This document shows positions 5,607 through 14,290 of a stretch of DNA of 15,124 bases, piece by piece. A program made the position numbers and the translations under genes. A model generated the notes under the pieces. It was not told the DNA's origin and searched no databases. It saw only the letters and a program-made list of their open reading frames with translations. Each line of letters starts with the position of its first letter. Position 1 is the first letter of the stretch. This stretch comes from a virus (lineage: Duplodnaviria > Heunggongvirae > Uroviricota > Caudoviricetes). Location: the IMG/VR virus record IMGVR_UViG_2728369181_000009; one strand, given 5' to 3'.

Positions 5607-5944
5607 AACTGTCTACCAACTGTCTACCGATATAATTGATTGATTTATTTAATGTTATTAACACATAACAAAAAAACAATCTGCAAACTGTCTACCAACG
5701 GTCTACCGCATTAATACATTGATAATTAATGATTTTTACTAAATGGTAGACAGTGTAGACAGTTAAAAGAGAAATTTAAAAAATGCCCCCTTAACTATCT
5801 GTTTTTTATATACCCCCCGTGGTGTAGGAATATAGAAATAACTGTCTACCTCTCTACCACATTGAAAATATCTTTATAATTCAAAATATTAATTGGTAGA
5901 TGGTTGGTAGAGGGTTAAGTGAATCTGTCTACCAACCGTCTACC
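5607..5944. repeat. Replication origin with iterons: at least 10 copies of (A/C)(A/C)C(T/G)GTCTACC in both orientations, separated by AT-rich spacers
   Basis: AACTGTCTACC at 5607, 5618, 5686 and 5840; AACGGTCTACC at 5697; AACCGTCTACC at 5934; CTGTCTACC at 5925; inverted GGTAGACAG / TGTAGACAG at 5745-5762; GGTAGATGG / GGTAGAGGG at 5895-5912. Directly 3' of the primase gene. Confidence 0.7.
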
Positions 5945-5971
5945 TTTACGTTTCAGCTTATAAATTTCGTA

Positions 5972-7777
5972 TTATGTTCTGTCGTTAATCCCTGTAGCTG
6001 CTGGCAACCAGCCATCAGCATCATCATCTAACAGAACATTTGTTATCACTCGCCCTTTATCCGGGCCTTTAGTGCATTTAGCCCGCTTATACTCCTTTCC
6101 GTATTCCGCCATAGCTCCTGGCATATCAGTACCAAAGCGTGTCAGTGATACTGGTTTTCCCAGGCCATGCGCTGACATATAGGCTAAATAAGCATGATAC
6201 AGGTATCGCCTCGGGCTAAATGGCACTATTTCCGCATTGCCCACCATCATTCCTTCACATTTAACCAACGACATCAGATAGCCGCAAAAGTCCACCAGTG
6301 AATCACCTTCGCGCTTTATCAACAGCGCTTCTTCTGATTTTTGCTGCTCATAAAGTAGTCTTTTAGCTTCGTCCTGGTCGGTAAATCGTGTTAGCAAATG
6401 GCGAATCACTACCGCCAGTTCGCCTTCTATCTTTTCCGCCAGCATGGGATCGCGTTCGTTCTCCGGTACGACCTCAGAGAAATTAAATATCACCCTACGA
6501 CGCGAGATCCCCCCGCTTCGGTCACTGAATGACATGGCGTTATTGTTTACCGCAAGCACTACTGCCGGAATACGTGTGGAGTAGGGGGCTTTATGTTTCG
6601 GATCAATTGCCACCTTGTCGCCGCCAGTAATTGCCTTAATTCCTGCACCATCGCCAGCGTAGCGAGTCATATCCGGCATGATAATCAGCGAAAAGCCAAC
6701 TACTAACGCGCGTTCCCTTGCGTCTTCCAGAGCCTTCATGCTTGCCGATACTGTGTTGGCCTTACCCGCCAGCATGGTACAAATCTCAGCCATCACACTT
6801 TTACCGCTTCCGCCTGGGCCTGTTACCTCAAGGAATAACTGCCAGTCGTACCGGTTCGCCAGTACCATGAATAATGCCGCCAGTACGCGATCAGCTTTAC
6901 GCTCATTATCTGCCACCGAACGACGCAGCCACTTCCAGAAATTCGGCGCATGTGTTGCCAGCGTTTCCCCCTCTGCTGGTGGGCTGAACGGTAATTCACT
7001 GGCATTTAACAACCAGTCATTTTTGTTATGCTCCCGAAAATTTCCCGTCCGGGTATCAAATACCCCGTTACTGAATCCAATAAGATTCCTGTCTGCCCCG
7101 CCCATAACAGGCAGGCTCAATTTCATTGTGTCTACGGCAAATTTAATGGCGTTTTGCGAATAACTGATTCCAGCATCAATAAAAATCTTCGCCATAGACC
7201 GCTGGAGTTCCTTATCAGATACAGGCACCCAGACAATTCCGTTGTAATGGTGAACTACATCAGAATCATCATTTATAGCCAGTGCTCTTCCATAATATTC
7301 AAGTAACACTTCCCCTCTCTGGCTGGCTCCCATCTGATTTAGTGCTGGCCTGGATAGGTCAATATTTTTTGTGGCTAATTTCATCGCTGAAACTTCCCCA
7401 CTCTCTGCCTGTTCGCGGATCCGTTGCAGGTAGTCGCGCCAGTTTTCCGGCTCCCGGTCGGTGATACCTTTGTATAATTTCGCGTCCTGTACACCAGCCA
7501 GCGCCAGCTTTTCAGCAATAGCATTGATCTGGATTGGCTCTATCTCCCCCGCGAGATAGACACGCGCAAAGCGACGTTCATCGTCGACAATGCGGATATT
7601 CGCCAGGTCTGCCAGTTGCTTTGGCCCCAGGTAAACAGGAGGCACGTTATCGCCGTGTTTTCGTCCTTCGCTTTCAATCCAGTGTTGAGCATGGGCGTAA
7701 GCATCCGTCCCGGCAAAAATGATTACCTCGGTGAATTTATCCTTCGGCTGATATTTTAAATTCGGTGCGTTTTTCAC
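5972..7777 (-). CDS. Replication primase/helicase, 601 aa (P4 alpha-like; P4-family primase C-terminal NTPase domain)
   Basis: Walker A motif VTGPGGSGKS in the C-terminal half, an N-terminal primase-like region, size and position upstream of the iterons. Start overlaps the upstream gene stop (ATGA). Confidence 0.8.
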   Translation of the reverse strand: MKNAPNLKYQPKDKFTEVIIFAGTDAYAHAQHWIESEGRKHGDNVPPVYLGPKQLADLANIRIVDDERRFARVYLAGEIEPIQINAIAEKLALAGVQDAKLYKGITDREPENWRDYLQRIREQAESGEVSAMKLATKNIDLSRPALNQMGASQRGEVLLEYYGRALAINDDSDVVHHYNGIVWVPVSDKELQRSMAKIFIDAGISYSQNAIKFAVDTMKLSLPVMGGADRNLIGFSNGVFDTRTGNFREHNKNDWLLNASELPFSPPAEGETLATHAPNFWKWLRRSVADNERKADRVLAALFMVLANRYDWQLFLEVTGPGGSGKSVMAEICTMLAGKANTVSASMKALEDARERALVVGFSLIIMPDMTRYAGDGAGIKAITGGDKVAIDPKHKAPYSTRIPAVVLAVNNNAMSFSDRSGGISRRRVIFNFSEVVPENERDPMLAEKIEGELAVVIRHLLTRFTDQDEAKRLLYEQQKSEEALLIKREGDSLVDFCGYLMSLVKCEGMMVGNAEIVPFSPRRYLYHAYLAYMSAHGLGKPVSLTRFGTDMPGAMAEYGKEYKRAKCTKGPDKGRVITNVLLDDDADGWLPAATGINDRT

Positions 7778-8871: not shown

Positions 8872-9070
8872 CAGCCATGATAATTTTTCCGGCCTTATCC
8901 AGTGCCTGATCGGCTTTCAGCTGCACAAATGCTAAATAATGGGAGATGCATTCTGATTCTCTGGCTGCGTGTTTATGCGCCACACCAGCGATAGCAGAAA
9001 TCTCAATAAGTGAATCCATCAGCGTTTTGATAGCGTCTACCGCTGCATCAGGCCATGTTGCATTACACAT
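8846..9070 (-). CDS. Hypothetical small protein, 74 aa
   Basis: ORF in the coupled operon, overlapping its upstream neighbour by 8 bp. Confidence 0.4.
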   Translation of the reverse strand: MCNATWPDAAVDAIKTLMDSLIEISAIAGVAHKHAARESECISHYLAFVQLKADQALDKAGKIIMADVQEVHHA

Positions 9071-9428
9071 GCTCCACCTCCTGGCGAATACGGGCAGCGA
9101 ATACCATCACGCAGCCATCAGGAGATTGCTGGCGTGCTTCCTGTTCGCTGGTGGCCTCGATGTGAATCACGCGCGGTTGTGCCGTACTCAGGGCGATAAA
9201 ACGCCAGATAAAATTGTTTTCGCATTTCTGAATAAACAGCGTGTTTTCTTCGCGCCCTTTCCATGTTGCCGAGATATAGCCCATGTCATTGAGCATCTCG
9301 CAGGCATCAACCAGCGTATCGGCGGCTACGTGTACAGTGTTTTTACCGTCAGCAATGCAATCACGGTGCACCGCCAGGAAGGTGTATATAAATTTAGGGT
9401 GAGTTTGGGTATGCTGTGTTCCAGCCAT
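9063..9428 (-). CDS. Hypothetical protein, 121 aa; first gene of the leftward early operon
   Basis: Internal ATG at 9428 (MAGTQHTQTHPKF...) with GAGG RBS 7 nt upstream. This is the protein-like C-terminal segment of the artefactual 528 aa ORF and sits directly downstream of the palindromic operator. Confidence 0.5.
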   Translation of the reverse strand: MAGTQHTQTHPKFIYTFLAVHRDCIADGKNTVHVAADTLVDACEMLNDMGYISATWKGREENTLFIQKCENNFIWRFIALSTAQPRVIHIEATSEQEARQQSPDGCVMVFAARIRQEVEHV

Positions 9429-9494
9429 AATCGTTACCTCGTTTAACGGTTTGGTTAGACGCCCTGCATGTGTGCCACCACTGCGGGGCGTTGC

Positions 9495-9527
9495 TGTATA
9501 TACACCACAACAATTGGTGTATATACA
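9495..9527. promoter_or_regulatory. Perfect 13 bp inverted repeat operator (TGTATATACACCA, 7 bp spacer, TGGTGTATATACA) in the divergent control region
   Basis: Read directly from the sequence. Related half-sites ACACC-TTTT-GGTGT (9570-9583) and palindrome GTGTACAC (9587-9594) follow. Lies between the divergent starts at 9428 (-) and 9619 (+). Confidence 0.6.
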
Positions 9528-9618
9528 AATTAAATTTAAGTGTGCTACAGTGTCAAGTGTTTTATCAACACACCTTTTGGTGTAATGTGTACACACCTCA
9601 AAATAACCGGACATTCTG

Positions 9619-9924
9619 ATGGCAACAGGAAACATCAACAGCAGATCGCAAATGAAAAATATCCGCTTCCCCCATGATGTAATCGAGGAAATGGAAAATT
9701 CGAAAACGGAAGGGGAAACAATAGCCGCTTTCGTGATTACAGCCGTTCGCGGTGAAATCGCCCGCCGCCAGGCAGAAGGAAGCGGAGAAAATCCCCTGGT
9801 TTCTTCGCTCGATGCCCTAGCGCAGGTGGAAAAAATCGGAGTCAAAGCTGCCGAGGAAATCGGGCAACTCGTCACCGTCGCGCGTGAAGAACTCCAGCGG
9901 CGCAAAGCTAAAGAGCAGGAATAA
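9619..9924 (+). CDS. Ribbon-helix-helix (Arc/Mnt/CopG-like) DNA-binding protein, 90-101 aa; candidate island repressor
   Basis: From the second ATG (9652): MKNIRFPHDVIEEMENSKTEGETIAAFVITAVRGEI fits the RHH pattern (beta strand, helix A, G-x-T turn, helix B), followed by a charged helical tail. One of only two plus-strand genes in the island, divergent from the early operon. No strong SD at either start. Confidence 0.55.
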   Translation: MATGNINSRSQMKNIRFPHDVIEEMENSKTEGETIAAFVITAVRGEIARRQAEGSGENPLVSSLDALAQVEKIGVKAAEEIGQLVTVAREELQRRKAKEQE

Positions 9925-9933
9925 CCACTATAG

Positions 9934-10182
9934 GTGCCGTGGTGTGAGGAACTACGGTGCATTATTTTACAGGGCAGCGCCATGACCAACAAAGAATCAA
10001 CCAATACACCATCACCGGCACGGAAAAAACAGCGCAGAAAGATAGCGTACGAGCATGAGTCAGACAGATTCGCGCCCTGTGCGTTTGTCCTTGAGAAATT
10101 CCTTAAAGAGTACAGGTGCACAAAAATGGGGTCGCATACCTGGAAAACATCGCGGCATGGCAATGTTAAAGAGCAGGAATAG
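9934..10182 (+). CDS. Small basic protein, 66-82 aa, co-oriented with the RHH gene
   Basis: ORF with GTG at 9934 or ATG at 9982; ends in KEQE-stop on the same 15 bp sequence as the RHH gene. Coding status is moderate. Confidence 0.35.
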   Translation: MPWCEELRCIILQGSAMTNKESTNTPSPARKKQRRKIAYEHESDRFAPCAFVLEKFLKEYRCTKMGSHTWKTSRHGNVKEQE

Positions 10183-10649
10183 CCCACCAGCAAGCCAGCA
10201 TATTCACCATAATGACCCTCAGTTAAACATAGAGTCATTGGTGCAAAGCTGACACATTGCCCACCAGCCGCAAATCTGGCATTGTTGGCGATGCGTTCAA
10301 GTATGTAGCTTTCCCACTGGCGGCCCTCTGCGGTCGCCTTTGTTTTATCCAGAACGAAATCAGACATCAGATTGATCAGCACCTGGCGACCTGACAAAAT
10401 CGCATCAGTCGCGCCACCAGCAAAATTTTTTGCTTTCCGGACAGTGTGACCAACGACATTTTGCAGCAAAATATTCTGCATTTCTGGCGTGCTGTAGTAA
10501 CGGTGATCAGCGCCTTCACTCTGTGCGACCACAACGCTATAATCTGCCTCGTAGACAGTAAGCAATATGGCGCAGTAGGCTATTCGTTCACAAAGGCGCT
10601 CCGGCAACGGGGCGCTTTCTCTTTTTGTAACGGTCAGAGCGTTACACAT
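10183..10649 (-). CDS. Hypothetical protein (about 150 aa protein-like segment) with no in-frame stop before running antisense into the RHH module
   Basis: ATG at 10649 overlaps the AntA-like stop by 8 bp and the first ~150 codons look protein-like. The frame then stays open through the antisense of 9619..10182 (Cys/Ser/Arg-rich junk) to 9063. The 3' end is undefined; a disrupted gene or artefact is possible. Confidence 0.3.
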
Positions 10650-11519: not shown

Positions 11520-11717
11520 TCAGGTAGCTGTTCCGCGTGATTCCGCAATACGCTGATTAATCCACTCGTCAATTTCACTCTCAACGAAAGCAATAGCTCG
11601 CGAGCCAATTTTAACTGATGCAGGAAATTTACCTTGCCCCATAAGGCGATAAATCCATGCCTTGCTATATCCAGTTCTACGCTGAACTTCTGTTAAACGA
11701 ATAAGCGTATTTGACAT
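11520..11717 (-). CDS. alpA: AlpA-family transcriptional regulator / excisionase-like, 65 aa
   Basis: IRLTEVQRRTGYSKAWIYRLMGQGKFPASVKIGSRAIAFVESEIDEWINQR has the AlpA/MerR-type HTH pattern of CP4-57 AlpA. GAGGT RBS. Placed downstream of a P4-type int gene. Confidence 0.85.
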   Translation of the reverse strand: MSNTLIRLTEVQRRTGYSKAWIYRLMGQGKFPASVKIGSRAIAFVESEIDEWINQRIAESRGTAT

Positions 11718-11786
11718 ATATTTACCTCATAACGTCTACTCAATTTGACGAGGTAATCCTGGCACAGAAATAACGAATATTTTCAT

Positions 11787-11896
11787 ACCCTCAGGCCTAA
11801 TGGTTACCGGAAGGAAATTAACCCTAAGGGTGATGGTAAAATTGACGGGGAAGATAAAAAAATACCCTCAGGGTAACAGTAAATCACCCTCAGGGT
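11787..11896. promoter_or_regulatory. Four copies of near-palindromic ACCCT(C/A)AGG(G/C)(T/C) in the alpA upstream region
   Basis: ACCCTCAGGCC at 11787-11797, ACCCTAAGGGT at 11821-11831, ACCCTCAGGGT at 11864-11874 and 11886-11896, each followed by a GGTA-containing tail. All lie between the stop of the 265 aa gene and alpA. Confidence 0.55.
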
Positions 11897-11911
11897 ATGC
11901 GGTATGGTGCG

Positions 11912-12709
11912 TTAATCCGGCTTTGCGTTCTTTTGGCTGTTGTCTCGGTTAATAGGGCAGGCAGTCCTCTCTATGAGCGTTGCAAGTGCATTACTTGCCC
12001 CCCACTGCTTAAGCTCCCTGGTTATCGCTTCTTGATTTCCCCTGGTGGCAAAATCATTTTCTGGATCGTAATTGGCCCACTCTCTGTTTCTAATCTCAAT
12101 AGCCTTAGCTAATGGGTCTTTATCCCAGTATTTATATAAGTGTATCGGGCGCTCTTGCTCTAACTGCTCTATCCTTGCCCTTAACTCTGCGTTTTCTTTT
12201 TCCAGCATTGCGATTTGGGATAATAAATCATCCTCTGTACGCAACTCTTTCTTTTCAATATCGCGTCCTTGTGCCTCGTCATTTTCAGAAGAGTTAGCGC
12301 CTTCCAGCTTCGTTAACGCGTCAAGGACATCGGGAAAAATTGCGAAAATTTCACCCCTTATAAATCCAATGTTCTCAAATTCGGGATCTTCCCAATAACC
12401 GGACACCAGAAAACCATTTTCATCCCTCTCACCAGGTAAACAACCACGTTTCCGAACCGCATTCAGATTTCTATAAAGAACATCATAATCAAATTCATCC
12501 CGATACGGGTTACAAAAAGATTCCAACAGCTTAAATTCATTTACTGTGTACAGGCGGATATGTTCTCCGCTTATTCTCCTGAGTATCCAAGTTATGACAT
12601 CTGAAACATCATAATCATCACCAGCGACCTTAAGCACGACCTCAAGAAATTCACGTAAAGAAATAAAATCTTTTTTGTATTCGTTTAATTCGGCATGAAT
12701 ATCAATCAT
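11912..12709 (-). CDS. Hypothetical acidic protein with central coiled coil, about 265 aa; accessory gene between int and alpA
   Basis: ATG at 12709 with GAGGTG RBS 6 nt upstream (the track ORF starts two codons earlier at GTG 12715). Asp/Glu-rich, with a heptad-like segment LLSQIAMLEKENAELRARIEQLEQER. No catalytic motif seen. Confidence 0.55.
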   Translation of the reverse strand: MIDIHAELNEYKKDFISLREFLEVVLKVAGDDYDVSDVITWILRRISGEHIRLYTVNEFKLLESFCNPYRDEFDYDVLYRNLNAVRKRGCLPGERDENGFLVSGYWEDPEFENIGFIRGEIFAIFPDVLDALTKLEGANSSENDEAQGRDIEKKELRTEDDLLSQIAMLEKENAELRARIEQLEQERPIHLYKYWDKDPLAKAIEIRNREWANYDPENDFATRGNQEAITRELKQWGASNALATLIERTACPINRDNSQKNAKPD

Positions 12710-12837
12710 ACGCACACCTCAGCGTCCTCTACTGTAGTGGCTGTACCAGTCCGTCGAGGTGTACGGATTTTCGGGAGCGACCCTAGACACAGACTTTTCT
12801 TTCGTCGCTCAAAGTCTACTACTGTATACGCAACCAG

Positions 12838-14052
12838 TCATCCACATTTTCCGAACTTGCCATGCACCACGTTACCGCCATGTTCGAGCGAATCCATATA
12901 GTCGGCGTACCACTGTAGCATCTCGCGCCGCCCGTCCAGATATTGCGCATGGTTGTACGTGCCACGAATTGAGTTTTTATCGACGTGCGCGAGCTGCGTT
13001 TCTATCCACGCAGTGTTATAGCCCTGCTCATGCAAAATGGTGCTCATGGTGTGCCGGAATCCATGACCAGTAACGCGCCCGGCATAGCCGATACGACGAA
13101 TGAGCACATTCATCGCCATTTCACTCATTGGCTTACTGTGGCGAATACGACCGGGGAAAATAAACTGATACTGGCCTGTCATGTTTTTTAACTGCTCCAG
13201 TATTTTTATTGCCTGTTCTGGTAATGGCACGCAATGCGGACGGCGCATCTTCATTCGTTCTTTAGGCACTTCCCACAAACGATTATCAAAATCGATCTCC
13301 CGCCATTCTGCCTGCCGTAATTCCCCGGGTCTGACACCTGTCAGAATTAATAACCGCATTGCCAGTTTGACGATCTGGCTTCCGGTGTACGTATTAAAAA
13401 CGCGAAAAAATTCCGGCAGTTCGTCGGCCTTCAAATAGGCGTAATGCTCTTTTTTATGTGGAGCAAATGCGCTCACCAGGTCAGGGGCTGGATTATATTC
13501 AGCGCGTCCGGTGATGATTGCGTACCGGAACACCTCGCCGCATCGCTGGCGAACCTTACGCAATTTTTCAGTCGCACCACGGTCGTTAAGACGGGAAAGA
13601 ACCGCCAGCAATTCCATCGGCTTAATTTCTGCGATCGGCCTTGCGCCAATGTACGGAAAAACGTCTTTTTCAAACGTCTCGATCATTTCCTCGGCGTATG
13701 ACGATGACCACCTGTCGATCCGCTTTTCGTACCATTCGCGAGCGATACCCTCAAAAGTATTGCCAAATTTGCTCGCCTGTTCTCGCTTTTGGGCTTTTCT
13801 GGCCTCACTTGGATTTATACCACCAATAAGAAGCCTTTTAGCCTCATCCCTTGCAGCCCTGGCATCAGACAGAGACACATCAGGGTACACGCCCAACGAC
13901 AACATTTTGGGCTTTCCTGCAAACCTGTAGCGCAGTCGCCACCCTTTCGAACCGTTCGGCTCAATGAGCAACGAAAGCCCGTTACCGTCATTGAGCGTAT
14001 AAGCCTTTTCTTTCGGCTTCGCACGCCTGATAGCAAGGTCTGAAAGCAGCAT
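12838..14052 (-). CDS. int: P4-family tyrosine integrase, about 404 aa
   Basis: N-terminal LNDGNGLSLLIEPNGSKGWRLRYRF arm-binding-type domain; C-terminal catalytic residues (R in VRPGELRQ, HGFRHT, Y in GTYNHAQY). Adjacent to the tRNA 3' end. The ATG at 14052 (MLLSDLA...) is preferred over the upstream in-frame ATG at 14091. Confidence 0.9.
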   Translation of the reverse strand: MLLSDLAIRRAKPKEKAYTLNDGNGLSLLIEPNGSKGWRLRYRFAGKPKMLSLGVYPDVSLSDARAARDEAKRLLIGGINPSEARKAQKREQASKFGNTFEGIAREWYEKRIDRWSSSYAEEMIETFEKDVFPYIGARPIAEIKPMELLAVLSRLNDRGATEKLRKVRQRCGEVFRYAIITGRAEYNPAPDLVSAFAPHKKEHYAYLKADELPEFFRVFNTYTGSQIVKLAMRLLILTGVRPGELRQAEWREIDFDNRLWEVPKERMKMRRPHCVPLPEQAIKILEQLKNMTGQYQFIFPGRIRHSKPMSEMAMNVLIRRIGYAGRVTGHGFRHTMSTILHEQGYNTAWIETQLAHVDKNSIRGTYNHAQYLDGRREMLQWYADYMDSLEHGGNVVHGKFGKCG

Positions 14053-14127
14053 GTGTATAGCTCCAAAAAATAAATTTTGTCCTATACGCATTACTATACA
14101 CTTCTGTGTGTAGATTCTGGTAGTTGT

Positions 14128-14216: not shown

Positions 14217-14290
14217 TGGAGCGGGCGAAGGGAATCGAACCCTCGTATAGAGCTTGGGAAGCTCTCGTTCTACCATTGAACTACGCCCGC
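14217..14290 (-). tRNA. glyU: tRNA-Gly (anticodon CCC)
   Basis: Reverse complement reads GCGGGCGTAGTTCAATGGTAGAACGAGAGCTTCCCAAGCTCTATACGAGGGTTCGATTCCCTTCGCCCGCTCCA, 74 nt, with cloverleaf, CCC anticodon in loop CTTCCCAAG, and encoded CCA. Confidence 0.95.

What the first reader, a model, noticed from the sequence alone, without database searches (positions are those of the whole stretch)
11718..11911. Array of four ACCCTNAGGGT near-palindromes upstream of alpA
Four 11 bp near-palindromic boxes, three of them near-identical, lie at irregular spacing (34, 43, 22 bp) in the alpA upstream region, each with a related flanking tail. This looks like an operator array controlling the excision/induction regulator; the helper-sensing input of the satellite would be expected to act here.
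Basis: seen in the sequence. Interest (0 to 1): 0.5.

Follow-up and report, generated by a model that had tools for sequence, protein, structure and literature searches.

The report
Regulator-binding box array upstream of alpA
Four conserved, helically phased ACCCTNAGGGT boxes in front of the satellite's master switch gene alpA most likely bind the uncharacterised protein encoded just upstream, which gives a testable candidate for how such islands sense their helper phage.

Summary
Three exact ACCCTNAGGGT boxes and one degenerate copy lie between the stop of a 267-aa ORF and the alpA start (0.01 exact boxes expected by chance). The spacings are not irregular: 22, 34 and 43 bp are multiples of about 10.7 bp, so the boxes share one helix face. 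In 14 diverged lineages the spacers cannot be aligned, yet the boxes keep their sequence and their distance to the alpA ATG (about -80, -113, -156, -179, -211).

One identical AlpA protein occurs with three different box types. The RHH protein, AntA and the integrase do not track the boxes either.

The boxes track the gene immediately upstream. All 40 IMG/VR loci with an ORF267-type C-terminal domain have them, and none of the other 40 do. A distantly related C-terminal class carries a different box type, and other classes carry others again.

Best reading: this is a phased binding array for ORF267, a modular regulator (variable N-terminal part, coiled coil, about 65-aa C-terminal three-helix domain) that controls the alpA promoter. 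Activator or repressor is undecided. Binding is inferred, not shown, and fold searches were inconclusive. Boxes 3 and 4 also form an intrinsic terminator in this lineage.

The parts
11787..11806 (-). Box 1, promoter-proximal and degenerate (ACCCTCAGGCC on +; GGCCTGAGGGT on the alpA sense strand), with its tail TAATGGTTA, a degenerate third half-site. The box starts 80 bp before the alpA ATG.
   Evidence: The degenerate form (T/G)GCCTGAGGGTATGA is conserved in 10 of 12 diverged class A loci.
11821..11839 (-). Box 2 (ACCCTAAGGGT) with tail GATGGTAA. Starts 114 bp before the ATG. In relatives it is expanded to 2 or 3 copies by a 33-bp tandem unit.
11864..11874 (-). Box 3 (ACCCTCAGGGT; part of the 13-bp palindrome TACCCTCAGGGTA). 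Starts 157 bp before the ATG.
11886..11896 (-). Box 4 (ACCCTCAGGGT). Starts 179 bp before the ATG and lies 15 bp after the ORF267 stop codon.
11856..11898 (-). Intrinsic-terminator-like element on the minus-strand transcript. Box 4 pairs with box 3 to form a hairpin (11862-11898), followed by a U-tract (11856-11861).
   Evidence: -24.8 kcal/mol, z -5.2, 0 of 200 shuffles as stable. The U-tract is absent from most diverged class A loci.
11912..12715 (-). ORF267 (RefSeq relatives start at MIDIH, 12709), the proposed reader of the boxes. Variable N-terminal part (1 to about 160), coiled coil (about 161-188), conserved C-terminal three-helix domain (about 189-257).
   Evidence: No hit in Pfam, PHROGs, NCBIfam or PADLOC. 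Co-occurrence with the boxes.
11520..11717 (-). alpA, the regulated gene. It encodes an AlpA/excisionase-family winged-helix protein, the master activator of Gram-negative PICIs.
   Evidence: PMC6092414.
11756..11764 (-). Candidate extended -10 element of the alpA promoter (sense TGcCAGGAT; TGnCATCAT in most relatives). It would place the centre of box 1 near -43. Inferred only.
   Evidence: conserved TTTTCATGCCATCAT block. The simple sigma-70 consensus scan found no minus-strand promoter in this region.
11722..11756 (-). Hairpin in the alpA leader (sense TTACCTCGT ... ATGAGGTAA) that would sequester the Shine-Dalgarno sequence.
   Evidence: 10 of 12 diverse leaders fold this way with different arm sequences. 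A formal pair count was inconclusive.

Best explanation
The boxes are the cognate DNA sites of the protein encoded immediately upstream, ORF267. ORF267 belongs to an uncharacterised modular family found between int and alpA in a subset of Gram-negative phage-inducible chromosomal islands.

Each site holds two direct half-sites and one inverted ACCCT half-site. The sites lie on one face of the helix at fixed distances from alpA. The proximal site overlaps the -35 region of a weak promoter that has no -35 element.

ORF267 would dimerise through its coiled coil and bind through its conserved C-terminal three-helix domain. This would assemble a phased complex that sets alpA transcription, and so sets induction of the island.

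The position of the array (entirely upstream of the core promoter, proximal centre near -43) favours activation, but repression by occluding the -35 region is not excluded. The variable N-terminal part is the natural place for a helper-derived signal to enter.

In this lineage boxes 3 and 4 plus a U-tract also terminate transcription coming from int and ORF267.

Shown: the existence, conservation, phasing and register of the boxes, and their co-variation with the domain. Inferred: binding, the sign of regulation, and helper sensing.
For: - Boxes are far above chance.
- Twelve diverged class A intergenic regions align only at the boxes and the core promoter/leader.
- Box positions relative to the ATG are fixed within about 2 bp in 14 lineages, and spacings are multiples of about 10.7 bp.
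- 40 of 40 IMG/VR loci with an ORF267-type C-terminal domain have at least 2 boxes at 1 mismatch or fewer. This holds even where only the C-terminal part (from residue 101, 171 or 190) still matches ORF267, at 35-53% identity. 0 of 40 other loci have any. One of the 40 (L177) is a frameshifted copy.
- No exact box occurs elsewhere in about 570 kb.
- A distant homologous C-terminal class (class B; shared W, Y, T, A and P positions) goes with a different box type, GTGGG(C/T)AC. Classes C, D, F and G have further box types.
- AlpA, integrase, AntA and RHH do not co-vary with the boxes.
- The family is modular. The C-terminal domain is joined to many N-terminal parts, and the N-terminal domain to other C-termini.
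Against: - No binding data exist.
- The domain-coding segment ends 6-40 bp from the first box, so the co-occurrence could partly reflect linkage within one recombination module.
- No boxes lie upstream of ORF267 itself.
- EcCIMP1, whose alpA promoter responds to its helper, has no such gene or boxes (PMC11773190). EcCICFT073 also appears to lack an intervening gene (inferred from the gene numbering in PMC6092414). The module is therefore not universally required.
- The promoter and transcription start are not mapped.
Confidence: 0.55

Rival explanations
1. A factor encoded elsewhere reads the boxes directly: a helper-phage regulator or a host protein. ORF267 would then be a linked cargo or co-factor gene whose 3' end travels with the boxes as one recombination module.
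For: Helpers induce alpA promoters in related islands that have no intervening gene (PMC6092414, PMC11773190). The C-terminal domain has no recognisable DNA-binding fold. The domain-coding segment and the first box are only 6-40 bp apart.
Against: No phage record encodes an ORF267 homolog. In a scan limited to gaps of 9-14 bp, no enterobacterial viral contig outside this island family carries a box pair. Each C-terminal class has its own box type. This is what a cis-encoded reader predicts, and it would otherwise need a matching external factor for every class.
Confidence: 0.15
2. The boxes are AlpA's own autoregulatory sites. AlpA is known to activate its own promoter.
For: AlpA activates PalpA in EcCICFT073 and contributes to it in EcCIMP1. 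AlpA/Xis-family proteins bind repeated sites (established knowledge).
Against: One identical AlpA protein occurs with class A, B and C arrays. An allele that differs from the window's only at residues 2 and 4 has class B boxes and no ACCCTNAGGGT. EcCIMP1 AlpA is 81% identical to the window's, with the same YSKAWIYRL and KIGSRAIAF segments, and has no such boxes.
Confidence: 0.07
3. The boxes act at the RNA level only. They would be hairpins or terminators that insulate alpA from int/ORF267 read-through, with no protein reader.
For: Box 4 and box 3 fold into a -24.8 kcal/mol hairpin followed by a U-tract. The consensus scan flags both boxes.
Against: The U-tract is missing in most diverged class A loci, while the boxes and their register persist. 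Boxes 1 and 2 have no terminator features. Helical phasing, a third half-site and a fixed distance to the promoter are DNA-level properties. A single box has only a 1-3 nt loop.
Confidence: 0.07
4. ORF267 is a centromere-binding or plasmid-maintenance protein, and the array is its partition site, like sopC placed downstream of sopB.
For: The array of phased repeats lies immediately downstream of the gene. P4-type elements can exist as plasmids (established knowledge).
Against: No ParA or ParM partner is annotated in the island. The register of the array is fixed to the alpA ATG, not to the ORF267 stop: the distance from stop to first box varies from 6 to 67 bp.
Confidence: 0.04
5. The boxes are integrase arm-type sites, recombination-directionality sites, or replication iterons.
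For: They are repeated sites near int.
Against: They lie about 2.3 kb from the tRNA-Gly attachment end. The integrase of a box-positive island is 97% identical to that of box-less EcCIMP1 and 66% identical to the window's. A box-negative locus has a 99% identical integrase. Separate iterons (CTGTCTACC) sit downstream of the primase gene at 5607-5960.
Confidence: 0.03

Closest known systems
SaPI Stl master repressors (Gram-positive PICIs)
   Same: Encoded by the island next to int. Modular, with a DNA-binding module joined to highly variable parts. Has island-specific cognate sites in front of the induction genes. Is the point where the helper signal enters (established knowledge; PMC6092414 discussion).
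   Different: stl is transcribed divergently, Stl has an N-terminal HTH and is a proven repressor. Here the gene runs in the same direction as alpA, the conserved domain is C-terminal with no family assignment, the sites lie upstream of or at -35, and the sign of regulation and helper binding are unknown.
P2 Cox boxes activating the P4 PLL promoter (the promoter of the vis-led left operon)
   Same: Several phased repeats upstream of the promoter that drives the AlpA/Vis homologue of a satellite, giving transcriptional control of satellite induction (recalled knowledge, not tested here).
   Different: Cox is encoded by the helper and its boxes have a different sequence. Here the co-varying protein is encoded by the island, and no phage homolog was found.
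AlpA positive autoregulation in EcCICFT073 and EcCIMP1
   Same: Same gene, same promoter position, same element family.
   Different: EcCIMP1 lacks both the boxes and the intervening gene. The boxes do not co-vary with AlpA.
Class II activator arrays such as PhoB pho boxes or lambda CII at PRE
   Same: Sites replace or overlap a missing -35 element, and further sites lie upstream at multiples of about 11 bp. The promoter has only a -10 or extended -10 element (inference).
   Different: No homology. The transcription start is unmapped and activation is unproven.
Rfam RF02996 int-alpA RNA motif
   Same: A conserved non-coding element of the int-alpA region in the same islands. It is present in this window at 12726-12793(-).
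   Different: It lies about 830 bp upstream of the boxes, between int and ORF267. It is a different sequence and is not part of the array.

Membership tests
Transcription-factor binding array (operator/UAS) for a cis-encoded regulator | Repeated sites conserved against unconserved spacers | tested here: met
   conservation islands coincide with the boxes in 12 diverged loci..
Transcription-factor binding array (operator/UAS) for a cis-encoded regulator | Helical phasing and a fixed register to the regulated promoter | tested here: met
   R 0.79 at 10.5-10.7 bp; box starts at about -80, -113, -156, -179 and -211 in 14 lineages.
Transcription-factor binding array (operator/UAS) for a cis-encoded regulator | Site type co-varies with the DNA-binding domain of the regulator | tested here: met
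   40 of 40 class A loci against 0 of 40 others; class B and other classes have other box types. Physical linkage is a caveat.
Transcription-factor binding array (operator/UAS) for a cis-encoded regulator | The regulator has a recognisable DNA-binding fold | tested here: inconclusive
Transcription-factor binding array (operator/UAS) for a cis-encoded regulator | Direct binding, and an effect of site mutations on transcription | not testable with these tools
   Needs gel shift, footprinting and reporter assays.
AlpA autoregulatory sites | Sites present wherever the same AlpA (same recognition residues) occurs | tested here: not met
   an identical AlpA occurs with three box classes. EcCIMP1.
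Stl-like master repressor system | Island-encoded modular regulator next to int, with cognate sites before the induction genes | tested here: met
Stl-like master repressor system | Represses island genes and is inactivated by binding a helper-phage protein | not testable with these tools
   The position of the array (at -35 and upstream) leans towards activation. No data.
Intrinsic terminator | Stable GC-rich hairpin followed by a U-tract, conserved among relatives | tested here: inconclusive
   Met in the window for boxes 4 and 3. The U-tract is not conserved in diverged class A loci.
Integrase arm-type sites | Lie within the att arms and co-vary with the integrase | tested here: not met
Replication-origin iterons | Repeats next to the replication gene | tested here: not met
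   distinct iterons at 5607-5960, beside the primase gene.
Rfam RF02996 int-alpA RNA | Covariance-model match at or above the gathering score that overlaps the boxes | tested here: not met
   the only match is at 12726-12793, not at 11718-11911.

The most novel reading that the evidence does not exclude
ORF267-family proteins are the unidentified helper-phage sensors of a large subset of Gram-negative PICIs. Their shuffled N-terminal domains would each recognise a particular helper protein or state. This would switch the coiled-coil dimer so that its C-terminal domain, a new DNA-binding fold, assembles on the phased ACCCT array and turns on alpA. It would be a functional counterpart of Stl, but built from different parts and probably of opposite sign. 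Each C-terminal class and box type would form an independent immunity or specificity group.
Probability: 0.3. Interest if true: 0.8.

Novelty: new variant of a known kind. Interest (0 to 1): 0.6.

Why it matters
How a helper phage switches on alpA in Gram-negative PICIs has been open since these islands were described. Fillol-Salom et al. 2018 wrote that identifying the inducer was 'under study', and the 2025 EcCIMP1 paper shows helper-dependent induction of the alpA promoter without naming a phage inducer.

This analysis offers a concrete pair to test: a defined cis array, and a neighbouring unannotated gene family whose C-terminal class predicts the box type. If the link holds, three things follow:
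- These islands have a specificity module comparable to phage immunity regions or SaPI Stl.
- A gene now labelled 'hypothetical' between int and alpA gains a function, and a new DNA-binding domain is defined.
- Box types could be used to sort satellites into regulatory groups and to design reporters or engineered 'drone' islands.

Tried and rejected
- Literature search for the box sequence found only irrelevant primers. Searches for AlpA binding sites, satellite repressors, yfjH/DUF6387 and int-alpA found nothing on this array or gene.
- Pfam, PHROGs, NCBIfam and PADLOC gave no hit for ORF267. Pfam gave none for 10 family members beyond coiled-coil noise.
- The PDB sequence-profile search returned coiled-coil matches only.
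- The look-up of encoding contigs for two short C-terminal-domain-only proteins found no record. These short entries may be mis-called fragments.
- Two extra two-box hits in viral contigs that I inspected (L214, L236) are high-GC coding repeats. L215 is a giant-virus MAG. L216 and L231 lack ORF267 and AlpA homologs and were not examined further.
- RNAalifold on alpA leaders gave no consensus structure, and a manual pair count did not beat the shuffles because the alignment was poor.
- Readers considered and rejected: AlpA, the RHH protein, AntA and the integrase. Function considered and rejected: origin iterons. Reasons are given under the rival explanations.

Full report
**Context.** The window holds a Gram-negative phage-inducible chromosomal island inserted at tRNA-Gly(CCC) (14217-14290), next to actS/ygeR. 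On the minus strand the order is:
- integrase, 12838-14091
- a 267-aa ORF with no family assignment, 11912-12715
- the 194-bp region under study
- alpA, 11520-11717 (PF05930)
- an AntA-type gene
- Icd-like and small genes
- a D5-type primase, 5972-7777
- ProQ/FinO

A YlcI/YnfO gene lies on the plus strand.

**Observation.** Three exact ACCCTNAGGGT boxes lie at 11821, 11864 and 11886, and one 2-mismatch copy at 11787, with start-to-start spacings of 34, 43 and 22 bp. Shuffles give 0.01 exact matches.

**Conservation.**
- The region occurs in 148 of 5426 complete E. coli genomes.
- Close relatives carry 4 to 6 boxes, because a 33-bp unit containing box 2 is tandemly expanded.
- In two E. coli relatives (strains JNU and E21845) the spacers have diverged while the boxes are kept.
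- 80 loci with AlpA relatives (77-100% identity) were fetched from IMG/VR. In these, box-positive loci are found down to 77% AlpA identity. Their spacers cannot be aligned.
- The boxes nevertheless stay at about -80, -113, -156, -179 and -211 from the alpA ATG.
- Spacings cluster at 2, 3, 4 and 5 helical turns. Rayleigh R is 0.79 at 10.5-10.7 bp, against 0.46 or less in 2000 random sets.
- Position counts show a third ACCCT half-site 6 bp upstream of each box on the alpA sense strand.
- No exact box exists elsewhere in about 570 kb of these islands.

**Who reads the boxes?**
- AlpA is excluded as the specificity determinant. One identical AlpA protein occurs with three different arrays. An allele that differs from the window's only at residues 2 and 4 has no ACCCTNAGGGT box. 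EcCIMP1 AlpA is 81% identical, with the same helix and wing segments, and has a quite different 427-bp upstream region.
- The integrase does not co-vary. A box-positive island has an integrase 97% identical to that of box-less EcCIMP1, and only 66% identical to the window's.
- AntA does not co-vary either.
- The RHH protein is found in 30 of 39 box-positive and 20 of 40 box-negative loci.
- By contrast, every locus whose upstream gene has an ORF267-type C-terminal domain has the boxes (40 of 40, including one frameshifted copy). No other locus has them (0 of 40).
- In many box-positive loci only residues from about 101, 171 or 190 to 257 still match ORF267, at 35-53% identity.
- A second class of upstream genes has a distantly homologous C-terminal domain. 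The shared pattern is AIxxxWxxYDxxxxxTxxxxxxVxxxLxxxGxxxxxAxAIxLVxxP. This class goes with different boxes of the GTGGG(C/T)AC type.
- Further classes carry ACTTCCAAA repeats, TACCGCAATTGCGGTA or TTGCATGCA palindromes, TTGACATGACA inverted repeats, and GGAGTTATCA...TGATAACTCC.

**The protein.**
- ORF267 has 31 close homologs, all annotated as hypothetical.
- A profile search of 1.84 billion representative proteins found only 93 hits. The C-terminal domain always sits at the C-terminus behind many different N-terminal parts, and the N-terminal domain also occurs with other C-termini.
- AlphaFold models show an N-terminal domain with winged-helix-like topology, a disordered linker, a long helix (161-188) with heptad character, and a C-terminal three-helix unit.
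- The fold evidence is therefore inconclusive. The link between protein and boxes rests on co-variation, with physical linkage as a caveat.

**Promoter geometry (inferred).**
- Diverged class A loci share a block GAGGGTATGA..., then TTTTCATGCCATCAT, then a leader.
- TGnCATCAT is a plausible extended -10 element. In the window it reads TGcCAGGAT, at 11756-11764.
- This would centre box 1 near -43 and the other boxes further upstream. That is the geometry of a class II activator at a promoter without a -35 element.
- A -10-like TATGA(A/T) that overlaps box 1 is an alternative reading.
- The sign of regulation stays open. I lean towards activation.

**Terminator.** On the minus-strand transcript, box 4 pairs with box 3 (-24.8 kcal/mol, z -5.2) and a U-tract follows. 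This would stop read-through from int and ORF267. The U-tract is not conserved in diverged relatives. Termination is therefore a lineage-specific extra role, not the reason the boxes are conserved.

**Literature.**
[quoted passage not shown] The inducer was not identified (PMC6092414).
- An alpA-lux fusion from EcCIMP1 (-449 to +50) is induced by its helper and is partly AlpA-dependent (PMC11773190).
- A survey of Gram-negative PICI organisation describes an integration zone of int and alpA, with no intervening regulator (PMC10111431).
- No paper in the library mentions this box sequence in a relevant context.

**Verdict.** Its proposed readers are not supported. The best-supported reader is the unannotated upstream protein. 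This is a new variant of a known kind, a satellite specificity module, and it makes the open question of helper sensing in Gram-negative PICIs directly testable.

Noticed in passing
window 12726-12793 (-): Rfam RF02996 'int-alpA RNA' matches here (40.3 bits, gathering score 35.8), between the integrase stop and the ORF267 start. The motif sits in the same place, directly after int and before the variable gene, in six other loci of different classes. Its function is unknown.
   Followed up: partly
window 11722-11756 (-): The alpA leader can form a hairpin (TTACCTCGT / ATGAGGTAA) that sequesters the Shine-Dalgarno sequence. Ten of 12 diverse leaders fold this way with different arm sequences. 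If transcription starts inside the 5' arm, only read-through transcripts would be translationally silenced. The formal covariation count was inconclusive.
   Followed up: partly
window 5607-5644, 5686-5723, 5923-5960: Three copies of a doubled iteron (CTGTCTACCAACNGTCTACC) lie just downstream of the D5-type primase gene. This is probably the island's replication origin.
   Followed up: no
window 9063-10649 (-) and 9619-9924 (+): The 528-aa ORF is probably spurious. RefSeq annotations of relatives place an Icd-like gene and small genes on the minus strand, and a YlcI/YnfO (RHH-like) gene on the plus strand. Unlike many relatives, this window has no C4 or isrK immunity RNA at the Rfam gathering score.
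   Followed up: partly
L128, L157-L213 (IMG/VR and E. coli loci): The gene between int and alpA falls into at least seven C-terminal classes, most with their own repeated or palindromic box type upstream of alpA. The N-terminal and C-terminal parts are shuffled between classes.
   Followed up: partly
L001 6422-6487; L124 and L125 3104-3202: The copy number of box 2 varies from 1 to 3 among E. coli strains, through a 33-bp tandem unit (three helical turns). In strain C9 (L127), boxes 3 and 4 are merged into one.
   Followed up: yes
L177 about 2057-2266: One class A locus has a frameshifted ORF267-type gene that has lost its C-terminal domain, yet it still has all its boxes. This may be a recent inactivation.
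   Followed up: no
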